Shown here piece by piece: positions 45,986 through 50,032 of a DNA stretch of 64,000 bases. Under the pieces are notes generated by a model. It had not been told where the DNA came from. It worked only from the letters and a program-made list of their open reading frames with translations, and did no database searches. This DNA is from Escherichia phage vB_EcoM_DE7: the sequence record OL825705.1; one strand, written 5' to 3'. Each line of letters starts with the position of its first letter. Positions within the stretch are counted from its first letter, which is position 1. A program made the translations under genes and the position numbers.

Positions 45986-46501
45986 TCAAGATAGTTTTGC
46001 AAACTCTCCGTGGAGTTTCACAGCAGCTTCACAGTAAGCTTTATGGGCTTCTTCTTCTGTTGTGTACGTCCCGATATGTATAGTCTTACCATTATGGTTA
46101 ATCTGGGCTTTCCACTTACCAGACTTACTTCTACTTGTACCTTTTAAGTTTTTTGATGTTCTAGGTTGCCTCCTATTAGACATGTTCTGTTCTTTTGTGG
46201 CCTCTCTAAGATTGTCCCAAGCATTATTCAAACCGTTCCCGTCTTTGTGGTCAATATGATTGTCAGGCCACTTACCTGTCATCCAGAACCAAGCAATTCG
46301 GTGATTGCCTGTCCTGTATCCTAAAATCTGGGTTTGCATATACACACCAGACCTTGTGCGCTTGATTGTACCAGCCTGTCTTCCAATCACCACCCTACTG
46401 CTATGTGGAGGTCTGCCAATCCAAGTCAAGACCCCTGTTTCGGGGTCGTAGTCTAACCAAGATTTTAACTGTTCATGTGTGAATCCACAATCTCTCATCA
46501 A
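45986..46501 (-). CDS. free-standing HNH homing endonuclease with AP2-type DNA-binding domain
   Basis: HIDHKDGNGLNNAWDNL HNH core; C-terminal SKSGKWKAQINHNGKTIHIGTYTTEEEAHKAY AP2-like. Confidence 0.7.
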   Translation of the reverse strand: MMRDCGFTHEQLKSWLDYDPETGVLTWIGRPPHSSRVVIGRQAGTIKRTRSGVYMQTQILGYRTGNHRIAWFWMTGKWPDNHIDHKDGNGLNNAWDNLREATKEQNMSNRRQPRTSKNLKGTSRSKSGKWKAQINHNGKTIHIGTYTTEEEAHKAYCEAAVKLHGEFAKLS

Positions 46502-47054
46502 TGTACCTCATACCACGATTTACCAACCTTTGCTGTACCAGTTACAAGTGTTTCTTTCCTCAAACCTAAGTTTTTTGAAGCTTGTCCATACATCCAGTCA
46601 GCAATTGCTTTCATATCATGTGTCATACCCTCTGGACATTCCCAACTATTTTCATCGTGATATGCCAGAAGTAACCTTGCTCCGATAGCTGGTTTTCGAG
46701 CATTCAGTTTTGTCAGACCATCTTCACAGGCTTTTCTTGCTGCTAGGTTGATGGCCTCATTCTGAATCTGTGCTTCCGAACTCATCAGGAGGTAGTTCAG
46801 TAGTTTATGTGGAGATTTGCACCATATCCATGCTCCAGCGACCCTGATATAACCACCTTTAGCAATTGAAGAATTCTTCCCAAAAACCTCTTCCAGAGCC
46901 TTTTTAGACGCCTTAAAATCGGCTTCTAAGCTATCAAGTAACTTCTTAATCTTTGGCAGACGCATATAGTAGGTCTGCTTAGTCAATGCACCTTCCTCTG
47001 TAGAAGCTGCCTTAATGGTTTTGGCAAACTTCTCATCACCTGCACCGAACAATA
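46498..47054 (-). CDS. DNA polymerase (family A, T7-type), 3' exon
   Basis: Begins in motif B (LFGAGDEKFAKTI), contains motif C AYHDE and C-terminal GKSWYEVH. Confidence 0.7.
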
Positions 47055-47856
47055 CATCTGGTCAATACACTCGCAAGGTGTACCAGTTCTCTTATGAACT
47101 TCTCCGCATTTCTACGGAGTGTCGGACTATATCACGTAGTAGTTATACTACCGTTGCACTTGGGAATGGTCATTAGCTTACCACCCTACTCTACTCAGTT
47201 CATACATTAAGTATGCTTTTCGATAGTCTCTGAACGTTTCTCTGTTAGGAATCTCTATAGTTATATCATTTGCTTAGATAGTCAATTGCTCTTTGCATGT
47301 TATCAACACTATCTGCAAGCAACCCCAAAGCTCTGTTGCAATTGTGGCATAACATACCTCTTACCTTTCCGGTTTTATGGTCATGGTCAACAACAAGTTT
47401 AGCCTTGTGTCGTGAGCCATTCATGATAAAACCTTCACCGCCACAAATTTGACATTTGTAATCACAGTCACGGAGTAGGGCTTCAACCTCTTCTCTTTCC
47501 AATCCATATGTTCTTAGGTAGTAATTCTTAACTCTACCTTTCTCACCGCAATGTGACGAACAATAAACTTGCCTTGCTGTTCTCGGCATGAACACATTCT
47601 CACAACTAGGACATTTCTTAGTAAGAACCCTGTGTTCCGCCCTTCTGTCAAATTTTAACACACAACTTCTGCACCGTTTTTGATTGTATTGGTACGGTTT
47701 AAACTCCGTGCCACACTCAGTGCATAATCTCTCTTCGTAACCTGCCATTGTCTCTCTCCTTTGTTTTAGGAGTCCTAACAGAGACTTCGCTGCTGATTAC
47801 CATATCTTTACAGACTTAGGCTTCCAGCAATTCACAACGTTTTACATGCGCCACTG
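47055..47856 (-). mobile_element. putative group I intron within DNA polymerase gene, carrying HNH endonuclease ORF
   Basis: 802 bp insertion within motif B codons; 5' exon ends in U, insertion ends in G; in-frame stops prevent read-through. Confidence 0.6.
47266..47748 (-). CDS. HNH homing endonuclease (intron-encoded)
   Basis: Zn-finger Cys pairs plus [20 protein letters not shown] HNH motif. Confidence 0.7.
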   Translation of the reverse strand: [160 protein letters not shown]

Positions 47857-50032
47857 ACGCATAAATGCCATTTTTGCTCTTCTTACGACCTTTTGTAATC
47901 TCGTGAAGAAGTTCCTCATCCTGTGTCTCCCTGCAACGAACAATATCCTCTTCTTTGTTAAGACCAAAGTAAATACTGTTCAGTGTATGCGCATCAGTCC
48001 CTGTGTAGACTTCATAGAGGTCATTTTCAGCATCATAACGCAGATACTTGTCAGTTTCTGGGTTAAGATACTTGTCAAGATGTTTACAGTAGTATCTACC
48101 ATCATCTTGCTTAGTGAACTCTACTGACTCTTTACCCTCAGTTACCGCTTTAGTGAAGTCTTCATCACCCATAAAGTTACAAAGAAGAACTAGCTGGGCT
48201 GAGTTCTGGTCAACAGAAACAATGTTAGTCCCCTCTTCACAAATCCACACCTCCCTCATAGGTGCTCCATAGACAGCAGCGCCAGACGGTACGTTTACAA
48301 TACCATATTGAGTCATACGTCCAGTTGAAGTACCAAATACCATTGCACCAGCACTAAGGCGACCATCAGGACGAATCTGGTTCAACCAACCTTTTTCATC
48401 ATCCTTTGAGTTCTCAATAGTTCTGCGTCGGTGCATCAAAGTATAGTATTTAGCAATCTTCTGTCCAAGCTCACCTTCAATCGTATCATAAGATGATTCA
48501 GTAAGTTTTGGTGAAGTACGGATTAAACAAGGTTCAAGTAAATCTGTGTACTTCTTCACAGACCAGTTATGTTCAATGTACTGGACACCTTCATGTTCAA
48601 CATAACTCAAACCACACCGTTCCACCATCTCATCCCACTTAGGATGCTTTGTAATCATCTTTTTGTTGTCTTTGAAACGACAAACTTTGACAGGACGACC
48701 ATCTGAGTCTTTCTTATAGTTCCAGTCATCTGGAATCCAACCAACTGATTTCAAGTAGTCTTTAACAACCGCTACCTGAGTCATACGAGAAACTTCGAAC
48801 TCAATTGGTGTATATGGTGCATCAATCAAACCTGTGTAGCGACTTGACTCAAGCTCAAAGTGGTTAACAACATGACTGTTATAGTACTTCACAGTTTTTA
48901 CTGTTTTTACTGGCTTCCAGTCTTTGCATTTCTTACCAATCTTTGCATTCAACTCATTGCAAATTGCACGAGCATCCTTCATTGCTACAAAACCTTCCTT
49001 GTACTCTTCACCAGTTACAGAGTTGGTTGGTGTATAGCAATTCCGTTTTTCAATGTTAAAAATCTTTGTAGTTGGCTTACCAAATGGCTTGATTTCATAT
49101 GTCTGCATTTCACCGTTACGTACCTGCTGACGATACTTTGTCTTAGGGTACTTGGTAATTCTCTTCAGTCCATCTGCATGACCAAATGCTTCAACATACT
49201 CATTCCAAGCTTTTGCAAACTCTTCTCCAGTGACTTTACCTTTGGTTTTAATAGTCGGAGGTAGATGTGGTTCAACCTCTGAAGCAAGCTCATTAGTCAA
49301 CTTGTCAAGTTCCTTTACATGAAACTCCATAAGTTCTTTATCAGCTTTCCAACCATTGATAGCCTGTTGACTCATCCAGAAAGATGTTTCTTTAGCTCGC
49401 ATATAGGTTTCATAGGTGTCTACGCCACACTTCTTTAACTTCAGATATTCATTATCCAGTGCACGTTTAGTTTTGGCGTTAATACGGATATCCTCTACAA
49501 CACGAGTGAAGATTTCTGCATTCCACACACCCCAATGTTCAATCTCTGGTTTACGTACACCAACACGAGCACCCCATGCAGCCAAGCCATGAGCACCTTT
49601 GTAGCCCTTTGGAGTTGGTCTATCCATCCACTGAACACGAGACTGGATAAGAGAATCCTGAAAGAAATTACTCCACGGCTTACACTTTGGATTATCAAAG
49701 TTCCACAAATCAGGTGCAATGTGATTGAAAACCCACCAGTCATATCCCAGACCATTATGGATGCAAAGTCGTTTTGCCTTTAACGCAAACTCAACACCTT
49801 CACGCAAACCACCCTTGATGTACTTGGTATACTTGTGACCGAGGATAGGTTCATCTGTAAAGACCCATACAGGTGGCTCTTCATCGTCAGACTTATAGTC
49901 TGCGAAAGCCATTACGTGCACTTTAGTGAACTCAAGGAGTAAACCATCAGTTTCTGTATCACCAACTAAATGTAAGTTTTTAAAATCTACGTTTTCCATT
50001 TCTACTCCCTCTAAATCATTAACCTCATACAT
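47857..50032 (-). CDS. DNA polymerase (family A, T7-type), 5' exon
   Basis: Exonuclease motif VGDTETDG, motif A SVDQNSAQLVLL, start of motif B RKKSKNGIYA. Confidence 0.7.

What the first reader, a model, noticed from the sequence alone, without database searches (positions are those of the whole stretch)
46498..50032. DNA polymerase gene split inside motif B by an 802 bp insertion carrying an HNH endonuclease (probable group I intron)
The 738-aa ORF (47816-50032, minus) has the exonuclease motif and motif A and ends ...GRKKSKNGIYASVAHVKRCELLEA. The next ORF downstream on the same strand (46498-47052) begins (L)FGAGDEKFAKTI and carries motif C (AYHDE) and the family A C-terminus. Joining exon 1 after the U at 47857 to exon 2 at 47054 gives R-KKS-K-NGI-Y-ALL-F-GAGDEK, which matches the spacing of T7-type motif B (R-x3-K-x3-Y-x3-Y-GAGDEK) exactly. 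The 5' exon ends in U and the insertion ends in G, as group I splicing requires. The insertion contains an HNH ORF (47266-47748).
Basis: partly seen in the sequence, partly recalled or inferred. Interest (0 to 1): 0.8.

Follow-up and report, generated by a model that had tools for sequence, protein, structure and literature searches.

The report
Mobile intron splitting phage DNA polymerase

Summary
The window is a Felixounavirus (Felix O1-like) genome. Its family A DNA polymerase gene (minus strand) is split into exon 1 (50032-47857) and exon 2 (47054-46498) by an 802-nt insertion (47856-47055). Joining the exons gives a 910-aa protein that aligns without gaps (900/904 identical) to the uninterrupted polymerase of phage Z31. 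The insertion is a group I intron. It has a 6-bp P1 with the U·G splice-site pair, a terminal G, a P10 helix and helices P3 to P9.2, including the extra P7.1 and P7.2 helices typical of subgroup IA2. The open reading frame (ORF) sits in the P6a loop. Rfam does not detect the intron in the window at its curated threshold because of the 0.5-kb ORF. Natural ORF-less copies of the same ribozyme in phages REP8 and Mushroom score 61.7 and 62.3 bits against a threshold of 50. The ORF is an Endonuclease VII-type ββα-metal nuclease, not a classical Pfam HNH, and is 98.75% identical to JH2 gp58, which Fang et al. 2018 already list as intron-encoded. Intron-less relatives match the window's exons except for a patch from -8 to about +75, which looks like a homing co-conversion tract. 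The kind is known and this instance was already noted. Splicing and cleavage have not been tested experimentally.

The parts
47857..50032 (-). DNA polymerase exon 1. It holds the 3'-5' exonuclease domain, motif A and the first half of motif B (...RKKSKNGIYA plus the first base of the Leu726 codon), and ends in U at 47857.
47055..47856 (-). Group I intron of 802 nt with subgroup IA2-like architecture. It begins CAGUGG and ends with the terminal G at 47055.
46498..47054 (-). DNA polymerase exon 2. It holds the rest of the Leu726 codon, LFGAGDEK, motif C (AYHDE) and the C-terminus, including the stop codon.
47846..47862 (-). P1 hairpin. The exon strand AUGCGU (47862-47857) pairs with the internal guide GCGCAU (47851-47846), and U47857·G47851 is the splice-site wobble pair.
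   Evidence: Read directly. All 6 pairs are standard and invariant in 6 relatives.
47852..47856 (-). P10 guide strand CAGUG. It pairs with the first five exon 2 bases, UAUUG (47054-47050).
   Evidence: Five standard pairs, two of them G·U.
47773..47839 (-). 5' half of the ribozyme core. It contains the P3 5' strand, P4/P5/P5a (L5 is a GUAA tetraloop), the P6 5' strand and the P6a 5' strand, and includes the conserved P (AAUUGCUGGAA) and Q (AAUCAGCAGC) elements.
   Evidence: Partial Rfam hit at 47739-47829, 24.6 bits, E=7e-4. Helices.
47756..47760 (-). Shine-Dalgarno sequence AGGAG of the intron ORF, 7 nt before the ATG. It can be sequestered in a local CUCCU/AGGAG hairpin.
   Evidence: Read. 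Local fold of -13.8 kcal/mol with z = -1.7, which is weak; any regulatory role is inferred.
47266..47748 (-). Intron ORF of 160 aa in the P6a loop. It is an Endo VII-motif (DHHRN, ββα-metal) putative homing endonuclease with N-terminal Cys-pair zinc ribbons.
   Evidence: Pfam Endonuclease_7 at 6e-20. Matches Hpy99I and T4 Endo VII. 98.75% identical to JH2 gp58. pN much lower than pS.
47055..47250 (-). 3' half of the ribozyme. It contains P6a', P6', the R element GUUCAGAGACUA (P7 5' strand at 47228-47224), P7.1, P7.2, P3', P8, the S element AUAUAGUCC (P7 3' strand at 47129-47125), P9 (GAAA loop), P9.1, P9.2 and the terminal G.
46980..47864 (-). Apparent co-conversion tract: the intron plus its adjoining exon flanks (last 8 nt of exon 1, first ~75 nt of exon 2). 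These flanks differ from the intron-less alleles, which are otherwise identical to the window's exons.
   Evidence: The boundaries are approximate.

Best explanation
An 802-nt mobile group I intron with IA2-type architecture interrupts codon Leu726 of the phage's family A DNA polymerase. This codon corresponds to T7 F528 and lies in the O-helix of motif B.

**Splicing (inferred).** After transcription the RNA folds into the P1-P9 ribozyme core. An exogenous guanosine attacks after U47857, which is held in the U·G pair of P1. P10 then aligns exon 2, and the terminal G at 47055 is released as the exons are ligated. The result is an uninterrupted mRNA for a 910-aa polymerase.

**Mobility (inferred).** The loop of P6a carries a 160-aa Endo VII-type ββα-metal endonuclease gene with its own Shine-Dalgarno sequence. 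In mixed infections the enzyme is expected to cut or nick intron-less polymerase alleles near the insertion site. Recombinational repair then copies the intron and short exon flanks into the recipient, which is homing.

**Shown here:** the exact boundaries, the ribozyme fold and its conservation, the identity and intactness of the nuclease domain, the patchy distribution among relatives, and a co-conversion-like tract.

**Not shown:** catalysis of splicing, nuclease activity and its cleavage site.
For: **Junction**
- The joined exons align with the intron-less Z31 polymerase at 900/904 identities and 0 gaps. The DNA alignment shows a clean 802-nt insertion.
- The joined protein passes the Pfam DNA_pol_A threshold and the separate halves do not.

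**Ribozyme**
- Natural ORF-less copies (REP8, 268 nt; Mushroom, 311 nt) score 61.7 and 62.3 bits against the Rfam Intron_gpI threshold of 50. Intron-less Z31 gives no hit.
- Mushroom and EC6 match the window's ribozyme segments at 279/280 and 278/280 positions.
- The window itself gives a partial P3-P6 hit of 24.6 bits, E=7e-4.
- An unconstrained minimum-free-energy (MFE) fold of the ORF-deleted window intron recovers P1, P3, P4, P5, P6/6a, P7.1, P7.2, P8, P9 and P9.1.
- My 88-pair P1-P10 model is 100% standard pairs in 6 relatives, against 27-44% when the partners are slid. It shows 2 compensatory double changes, 1 wobble change and no broken pair.
- By eye, the related MIF8 intron (94.4 bits) has further compensatory differences in P3 and P5.

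**Endonuclease**
- Pfam Endonuclease_7 at 6e-20.
- The DHDH...R...N motif aligns to Hpy99I and T4 Endo VII.
- pN is 0.005 against pS 0.136 versus JH2, and 0.13 against 0.85 versus EC6.
- The ORF is 51-53% identical to ORFs that likewise lie between split DNA polymerase CDSs in T7-like phages; Fang et al. 2018 (PMC6083498) call the Yersinia phage Berlin counterpart intron-encoded.

**Mobility**
- About 98 of 262 related records carry the intron, roughly 40 of them with the ORF.
- Intron-less ECOH1, Z31 and HY02 are identical to the window's exons except for about 22 mostly synonymous differences between -8 and about +75.

**Literature**
- JH2, EC6 and FSL SP-010 homologues are called intron-encoded in PMC6083498.
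Against: - There is no experimental evidence of splicing or cleavage for any Felixounavirus copy in the literature I could search.
- The window's own intron does not reach the Rfam threshold. The ORF insertion explains this, but the threshold-level evidence is borrowed from ORF-less relatives.
- Covariation support is thin because the ribozyme is almost invariant among the relatives: only 2 pairs show double changes.
- No P2 helix was identified.
Confidence: 0.92

Rival explanations
1. Genes in pieces. The insertion is not removed from the RNA. The endonuclease gene is effectively free-standing, and the polymerase is made as two polypeptides (738 aa plus about 184 aa) that assemble non-covalently, as reported for some phage genes split by homing endonuclease genes.
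For: - GenBank records annotate two separate 'DNA polymerase' CDSs in nearly all relatives.
- An ORF with a TTG start exists at 47052.
- Precedent: a T-even-like phage ribonucleotide reductase gene split by a homing endonuclease retains function. I saw this only as a title in a reference list and recall the rest from general knowledge.
Against: - The insertion contains a complete, conserved group I ribozyme.
- The break falls inside a codon in the O-helix of motif B.
- There is no Shine-Dalgarno sequence within 20 nt upstream of the TTG (read).
- The non-coding ribozyme segments are more conserved than the ORF (99% against 73%). That would be unexplained if they were mere spacers.
Confidence: 0.03
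2. The intron splices, but this copy is no longer mobile. The endonuclease is inactive or on its way to loss, so the element persists only by vertical descent.
For: - Degenerate and ORF-less derivatives are common. VpaE1 has a 22-nt deletion that splits the ORF.
- REP8 and Mushroom have lost the ORF. This is the usual homing-endonuclease life cycle.
Against: - The window ORF is full length, with the catalytic D-H-H-R-N positions aligned to Hpy99I and Endo VII.
- It is under strong purifying selection.
- The window's exon flanks show a short donor-type patch in an otherwise ECOH1-like gene. This points to recent acquisition by recombination.
Confidence: 0.12
3. The intron is real but not autonomously self-splicing. 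It needs a phage or host protein cofactor, or splices inefficiently, so it acts as a brake or regulator of polymerase expression.
For: - No P2 helix was found.
- P1 has only a 5-nt loop that doubles as the P10 guide.
- A local alternative pairing of the P6a 5' strand with the region just before the ORF start codon exists.
Against: - The core is canonical, with GNRA loops in L5 and L9.
- Related IA2 introns that have the ORF in P6a in T7-like and cyanophage polymerase genes are reported to self-splice. This rests on PMC3428280 and my recollection of Bonocora & Shub 2004, which I could not read.
Confidence: 0.1

Closest known systems
DNA polymerase intron of other Felixounaviruses (JH2 gp58, EC6 AFU62407, FSL SP-010 gp255), listed as 'intron-encoded' Endo VII-motif proteins by Fang et al. 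2018, Mob DNA (PMC6083498)
   Same: - Same gene, same insertion point and same ribozyme: 275/280 (JH2) to 278/280 (EC6) of the ribozyme positions are identical.
- The ORF is 98.75% (JH2) or 80% (EC6) identical at the protein level.
   Different: Nothing essential differs. The window combines a JH2-type ORF with an EC6/REP8-type P8 and exon 2 flank, on an ECOH1-like polymerase backbone.
[quoted passage not shown] These include ΦI/W31 with I-TslI (Bonocora & Shub 2004), Yersinia phage Berlin-type phages, and Jarilo and Altay-2017 examined here.
   Same: - The host gene is a family A polymerase, and the insertion is in motif B.
- The ORF is a homologous Endo VII-type nuclease, 51-53% identical.
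- A shared P9.1 sequence (AGUUCAUAAGAGAAC) shows the ribozymes are related.
- The published ΦI/W31 introns carry the ORF in P6a.
   Different: - The insertion point is 11 nt upstream, in the codon equivalent to T7 F524 rather than F528.
- The ribozyme sequence is otherwise diverged.
- The host is a podovirus rather than a Felix O1-like myovirus.
- I-TslI was described as 'HNH'.
- I could not read the 2004 paper.
Escherichia phage ManiMatter_Bas94 DNA polymerase I intron (BASEL collection), annotated as a joined CDS
   Same: - It has an Endo VII-type ORF, 47% identical, inside a group I intron (43.3 bits in Rfam).
- The intron lies in motif B of a family A polymerase.
   Different: The insertion is about 6 nt upstream, in the Tyr codon equivalent to T7 Y526. 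The phage lineage is different.
I-PfoP3I intron of cyanophage Pf-WMP3 and the SPO1/SP82 I-HmuI/II introns (group I introns in phage DNA polymerase genes)
   Same: - They share the logic of a group I intron plus a ββα-metal nuclease in a conserved polymerase motif.
- The Pf-WMP3 intron is IA2, lacks P2, and has its ORF starting in P6a (PMC3428280).
   Different: - They use classical HNH nucleases that nick DNA.
- The insertion sites differ.
- These introns have experimental proof of splicing and cleavage, which is lacking here.
F-CphI of cyanophage S-PM2, the founding member of the 'DHHRN' homing endonuclease family (PMC6083498)
   Same: It has the same Endo VII catalytic motif used for homing.
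   Different: F-CphI is free-standing and sits next to an intron ('collaborative homing'). The window's enzyme is encoded inside the intron.
ORF-less group I intron of Erwinia phage MIF8 (Schitoviridae)
   Same: - The ribozyme core is closely related (81.5% identity over P3-P6; 94.4 bits in Rfam).
- It has the same P7, P7.1/7.2 and P9 layout.
   Different: - It sits just downstream of the annotated RNAP2-like CDS, not in a polymerase gene; I did not establish whether it splits a gene.
- It has a P2 hairpin and no ORF.

Membership tests
Group I intron (Rfam RF00028) | The covariance model score reaches the curated gathering threshold of 50 bits. | tested here: inconclusive
   The window itself gives only 24.6 bits (partial, P3-P6) and 15.2 bits, because a ~0.5-kb ORF sits in P6a. 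Natural ORF-less copies pass at 61.7 and 62.3 bits; Mushroom matches the window's ribozyme segments at 279/280 positions.
Group I intron (Rfam RF00028) | The 5' exon ends in U, paired with G of the internal guide sequence in P1, and the intron ends in G. | tested here: met
   U47857·G47851 lies within the 6-bp P1 (AUGCGU/GCGCAU), and the terminal G is at 47055.
Group I intron (Rfam RF00028) | A conserved core: P3-P8 with the P3/P7 pseudoknot, the P/Q/R/S sequence elements, and P9 and P10. | tested here: met
   All helices form with standard pairs (88/88). The MFE fold recovers the nested ones. The P, Q, R and S consensus elements can be read directly.
Group I intron (Rfam RF00028) | Removal restores an intact host reading frame that is colinear with intron-less homologues. 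| tested here: met
   900/904 identities and 0 gaps against the Z31 polymerase. Seven intron-less alleles have the same junction.
Group I intron (Rfam RF00028) | Guanosine-dependent self-splicing. | not testable with these tools
   This needs an in vitro splicing assay or RT-PCR. No published test for a Felixounavirus was found.
Subgroup IA2 | Extra helices P7.1 and P7.2 between the P7 5' strand and the P3 3' strand. | tested here: met
   Two hairpins lie at 47215-47201 and 47186-47162, joined by a segment that contains GUA. The assignment follows the criteria quoted in PMC3428280. No formal subgroup classifier was run.
Endo VII-motif ('DHHRN') homing endonucleases, ββα-metal superfamily | An Endonuclease_7 domain with the conserved D, H, H, R and N catalytic residues. 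| tested here: met
   Pfam PF02945 scores 71.3 bits against a cut-off of 23.6. The segment [20 protein letters not shown] aligns to Hpy99I (3fc3) and T4 Endo VII (1e7d).
Endo VII-motif ('DHHRN') homing endonucleases, ββα-metal superfamily | Site-specific cleavage of the intron-less allele and the resulting homing. | not testable with these tools
   Only indirect support is available: the patchy distribution and a co-conversion-like tract.
Classical HNH homing endonucleases (Pfam HNH, HNH_3 and related families; I-HmuI type) | A match to an HNH family profile. | tested here: not met
   No HNH family appears at E<=0.01 for the intron ORF. The neighbouring free-standing ORF 45986-46501 does match HNH_3 plus AP2. 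The intron ORF is related to HNH only at superfamily level (PMC6083498).
Intein | An in-frame insertion translated together with the host protein. | tested here: not met
   The exon 1 frame reaches a TAA at 47818-47816, 13 codons into the insertion. The 802-nt length is not a multiple of 3.
Split gene expressed as two polypeptides | An independent translation start (ribosome-binding site plus start codon) for the downstream fragment. | tested here: not met
   There is only a TTG at 47052 with no Shine-Dalgarno-like sequence in the 20 nt upstream. This rests on sequence reading alone.

The most novel reading that the evidence does not exclude
The intron is a mosaic whose modules move semi-independently.

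- **Nuclease cassette.** Two nuclease alleles with saturated synonymous divergence (73% nt identity, pS 0.85) sit in ribozymes that are 99% identical. This suggests exchange of the nuclease cassette within a fixed P6a scaffold.
- **Recent homing.** The window's polymerase is an ECOH1-type gene with a donor patch from -8 to about +75, which suggests a very recent homing event.
- **Exon haplotypes.** All seven intron-less alleles examined share one synonymous haplotype at the site (ACGCCC|UGUUA instead of AUGCGU|UAUUG). That haplotype cannot form P1 or P10. The intron may therefore have to carry its own exon flanks, and the intron-less haplotype might be a cleavage-resistant 'immune' allele in an ongoing arms race.

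If this is right, Felixounaviruses, with hundreds of sequenced isolates in three allelic states, would be a natural system for measuring homing, co-conversion and nuclease turnover.
Probability: 0.4. Interest if true: 0.35.

Novelty: already known. Interest (0 to 1): 0.2.

Why it matters
- **Annotation.** Almost every deposited Felixounavirus genome with this element lists two 'DNA polymerase' CDSs plus an 'endonuclease VII' and marks no intron. The original Felix O1 paper reported no introns, correctly for that strain. Standard Rfam scans miss the ORF-containing form. The correct product is a single 910-aa polymerase.
- **Biology.** This is one more case of mobile introns targeting the most conserved part of a replication gene. 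Related nucleases sit in introns at three insertion points within 11 nt of motif B in unrelated phage groups. It does not change current understanding.

Tried and rejected
- **Rfam on the window.** The gathering-threshold scan found only tRNAs. The E-value scans of the region and of the whole window gave only a partial Intron_gpI hit. I resolved this by scanning ORF-less relatives.
- **E-value scan of ORF-containing relatives and T7-like introns.** JH2, EC6, VSe102, VpaE1, Altay and Jarilo were all missed. Only MIF8 and Bas94 scored. This shows the tool's blind spot for introns with large ORFs.
- **MAFFT alignment including MIF8 for formal covariation (A2).** P1, P3' and P8 were misaligned, so I counted only the Felixounavirus rows (A3). 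The MIF8 compensatory differences are reported only as read by eye.
- **Bonocora & Shub 2004 (PMC529087).** The paper is not held. What I say about ΦI/W31 comes from citing papers and from memory.
- **Literature searches for a Felixounavirus splicing experiment.** None was found. The SPJ41 paper mentions 'two introns' among its ncRNA predictions without detail.
- **Intein and two-polypeptide readings.** Both were considered and rejected (see the membership test).
- **Sequestration of the ORF's Shine-Dalgarno sequence.** The local hairpin is only weakly better than shuffled sequence (z = -1.7). I keep it as a remark, not a claim.

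
Full report
**What the window is.** The region around the finding matches 262 phage records at 86-96% identity, nearly all of them Felixounavirus (Felix O1-like myoviruses of Escherichia and Salmonella). The window also carries the 23-tRNA cluster typical of that genus. Also present are DNA ligase, DHFR, primase-helicase and ribonucleotide reductase genes.

**Checking the observation.** On the minus strand, exon 1 runs from 50032 to 47857 and ends ...AAT GGC ATT TAT GCG T. 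The insertion is 47856-47055, 802 nt long, and reads CAGTGG...CCAGATG. Exon 2 starts at 47054 with TA TTG TTC GGT GCA GGT GAT GAG and ends at the stop codon at 46498.

The joined frame encodes 910 aa with ...GRKKSKNGIYALLFGAGDEKFAKTI.... Its C-terminal part aligns to T7 DNA polymerase, with R716/K720/Y724/F728 on T7 R518/K522/Y526/Y530, which is motif B, the O-helix. The joined protein aligns to the uninterrupted 909-aa polymerase of Shigella phage Z31 at 900/904 identities and no gap. It passes the Pfam DNA_pol_A threshold at 49.5 bits against 34.3. The two halves alone do not pass, at 17.2 and 25.0 bits. Felix O1 itself has an uninterrupted 906-aa polymerase (PMC3185647).

**Is the insertion a group I intron?** Rfam at its curated threshold finds no intron in the window. 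Permissive scans find a partial match to the P3-P6 part of Intron_gpI at 47739-47829(-), with 24.6 bits and E=7e-4 for the region or 0.04 for the whole window. The cause is the ~0.5-kb ORF inside the ribozyme.

Among relatives the same site exists in three states:
- intron-less (Z31, ECOH1, HY02, ph2-2, bumzen and others);
- a 268-nt or 311-nt ORF-less intron (REP8, pSJ21, SPJ41; Mushroom);
- the 802-805-nt ORF-containing form (about 40 records).

The ORF-less introns of REP8 and Mushroom score 61.7 and 62.3 bits over the full model against a threshold of 50, and intron-less Z31 gives nothing. Mushroom matches the window's ribozyme segments at 279 of 280 positions.

**The fold in the window sequence.** In the window I can place every helix:
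- P1: AUGCGU (47862-47857) with GCGCAU (47851-47846), including the U47857·G47851 splice-site wobble.
- P10: CAGUG (47856-47852) with the first five exon 2 bases, UAUUG.
- P3, P4 and P5/P5a, with a GUAA tetraloop in L5.
- P6 and a 12-bp P6a whose loop holds the ORF.
- P7: GACUA/UAGUC, pseudoknotted with P3.
- P7.1 and P7.2, P8, and P9 with a GAAA loop.
- P9.1 and P9.2, then the terminal G at 47055.

The classical P, Q, R and S consensus elements (AAUUGCUGGAA, AAUCAGCAGC, GUUCAGAGACUA, AUAUAGUCC) can be read directly. An unconstrained minimum-free-energy fold of the ORF-deleted sequence recovers all the nested helices. I found no P2. The Pf-WMP3 polymerase intron, also IA2, likewise lacks P2 (PMC3428280). 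P7.1 and P7.2 fit subgroup IA2.

**Conservation and covariation.** On six Felixounavirus ribozymes, all 88 pairs are standard in every sequence, against 27-44% when the partners are slid. Two pairs show compensatory double changes: P6a U-A to C-G in REP8, and P8 U-A to C-G in JH2 and VpaE1. One pair changes to a wobble and none breaks. The L5 loop changes from GUAA to GAGA in REP8, and both are GNRA loops. Variation is scarce, so this counts as support rather than proof.

The related ORF-less intron of Erwinia phage MIF8 (94.4 bits) shows, by my reading, further compensatory differences: in P3 CGUUG/CAACG against CCUGG/CCAGG, and in P5. MAFFT misaligned MIF8, so I did not count it formally.

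**Not an intein, probably not a two-subunit polymerase.** The exon 1 frame stops 13 codons into the insertion, and 802 is not a multiple of 3. Exon 2 begins mid-codon. Its only possible start is a TTG with no Shine-Dalgarno sequence upstream. The non-coding parts of the insertion are far better conserved than its ORF, as shown in the next section.

**The ORF.** The 160-aa product matches Pfam Endonuclease_7 (6e-20) and no HNH family. Its C-terminal segment ...[26 protein letters not shown]... aligns to the ββα-metal restriction enzyme Hpy99I and to T4 Endo VII. The N-terminal half has Cys pairs suggesting zinc ribbons.

Its identity to related ORFs is as follows:

| ORF | Protein identity |
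|---|---|
| JH2 gp58 | 98.75% |
| EC6 ORF | 80% |
| ORFs between the split DNA polymerase CDSs of T7-like phages Jarilo and Altay-2017 | 51-53% |
| Bas94_0039, inside a polymerase CDS annotated as joined | 47% |

Purifying selection is strong: pN/pS is 0.005/0.136 against JH2 and 0.13/0.85 against EC6. The ORF has an AGGAG 7 nt before its ATG. A local CUCCU/AGGAG hairpin could mask it, but the fold is only marginally better than shuffles.

**Evidence for mobility.**
- **Patchy distribution.** About 98 of 262 related records carry the ribozyme and about 40 carry the full ORF.
- **Decay products.** VpaE1 has a 22-nt deletion that splits the ORF. Mushroom lacks exactly the ORF, with its endpoints in an imperfect direct repeat, GACTCCTAAAACAAA / GACTATCTAAGCAAA.
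- **Co-conversion-like tract.** Intron-less ECOH1, Z31 and HY02 are identical or nearly identical to the window's exons from -300 to -9 and from about +90 to +300. They differ at 4 of the last 8 nt of exon 1 and at about 18 of the first ~75 nt of exon 2. All but one of these differences are synonymous. In that patch the window is identical to the intron-bearing phages REP8, EC6 and VSe102. This is what homing with co-conversion of flanks would leave.
- **Exon haplotypes.** All seven intron-less alleles examined share ATCTACGCCC|TGTTATTTGGAGCCGGAGAC. All intron-bearing alleles share ATTTATGCGT|TATTGTTCGG... The intron-less haplotype could form neither P1 nor P10, so the intron appears to travel with compatible flanks.
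- **Mosaic structure.** Window against EC6 gives 278/280 identical ribozyme positions but 72.7% ORF identity. The window has a JH2-type ORF together with an EC6/REP8-type P8 and exon 2 flank.

**Comparison with what is known.** Group I introns with ββα-metal nucleases in phage DNA polymerase genes are a classic theme. Known cases include SPO1/SP82, the T7-like phages ΦI and W31, Pf-WMP3, LUZ24 and K1F.

Fang et al. 2018 (PMC6083498) define the Endo VII-motif 'DHHRN' homing endonuclease family. They explicitly list the proteins of phages JH2, EC6 and FSL SP-010 as intron-encoded. These are the direct counterparts of the window's ORF. The element is therefore already known, although I found no structural description or splicing experiment for the Felixounavirus copy. 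GenBank records almost never annotate it as an intron.

One comparative detail stands out. The T7-like introns sit in the codon equivalent to T7 F524, Bas94's sits in the Y526 codon, and this one sits in the F528 codon. That gives three insertion points within 11 nt of motif B, associated with homologous nucleases.

**Verdict.** This is a textbook mobile group I intron, already noted in sister phages, so interest is low. The residual value lies in correcting annotation and in using the three-state Felixounavirus population as a natural record of homing, co-conversion and nuclease turnover.

Noticed in passing
window 45986-46501 (-): A free-standing HNH_3 + AP2-domain endonuclease gene lies immediately downstream of the polymerase, and its start overlaps the polymerase stop by 4 nt. 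It is present in REP8, Mushroom and Z31 but absent in JH2. It therefore looks like an optional second homing endonuclease gene next to the intron-bearing gene.
   Followed up: partly
window 56908-57405 (+): A SegE-like GIY-YIG endonuclease ORF (Pfam 3.7e-28). It is probably another free-standing homing endonuclease gene, located in the nucleotide-metabolism region.
   Followed up: no
window 47266-47772 (-) compared with L005/L006 (EC6, VSe102): The P6a loop cassette (ORF plus its short leader and trailer) is 27% diverged, with saturated synonymous sites. The flanking ribozyme is 99% identical. The divergence starts and ends within a few bases of the P6a stem. This suggests cassette exchange or recombination inside the intron.
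   Followed up: partly
L002 (Mushroom) about 1585-1600, against window 47772-47758 and 47282-47268: The 311-nt ORF-less intron of Mushroom equals the window intron with the ORF removed between two imperfect 15-nt direct repeats, GACTCCTAAAACAAA and GACTATCTAAGCAAA. This could reflect a microhomology deletion, or it could be the footprint of the original ORF insertion.
   Followed up: no
L007 (VpaE1) 509-969: In VpaE1 the intron ORF carries a 22-nt deletion and is annotated as two overlapping fragments, so it is a decaying endonuclease gene. The ribozyme is intact.
   Followed up: no
L010 (Erwinia phage MIF8, Schitoviridae) 2455-2702: A strong, unannotated ORF-less group I intron (94.4 bits) lies directly after the 'RNAP2-like protein' CDS. 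Its core is about 80% identical to the window's ribozyme, and its 5' exon also ends in GAUGCGU. The RNAP2-like gene may be split there.
   Followed up: no
window 10960-16407 (+): This is a tRNA cluster with 23 tRNAs at the Rfam threshold, plus weaker tRNA-like hits at 12966-13044 and 11880-11963. Two conserved DUF genes (DUF7338 at 14493-15050 and DUF7217 at 15439-16236) are embedded in it. The listed 15439 start of the second overlaps the tRNA at 15411-15481, so the true start is probably later.
   Followed up: no
L008 (Yersinia phage Altay-2017) 501-3330: The T7-like DNA polymerase is annotated as several separate CDS fragments around an 'integration and excision endonuclease VII'. This is an unannotated motif B intron, and there is possibly a further break at 1499/1532.
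   Followed up: no
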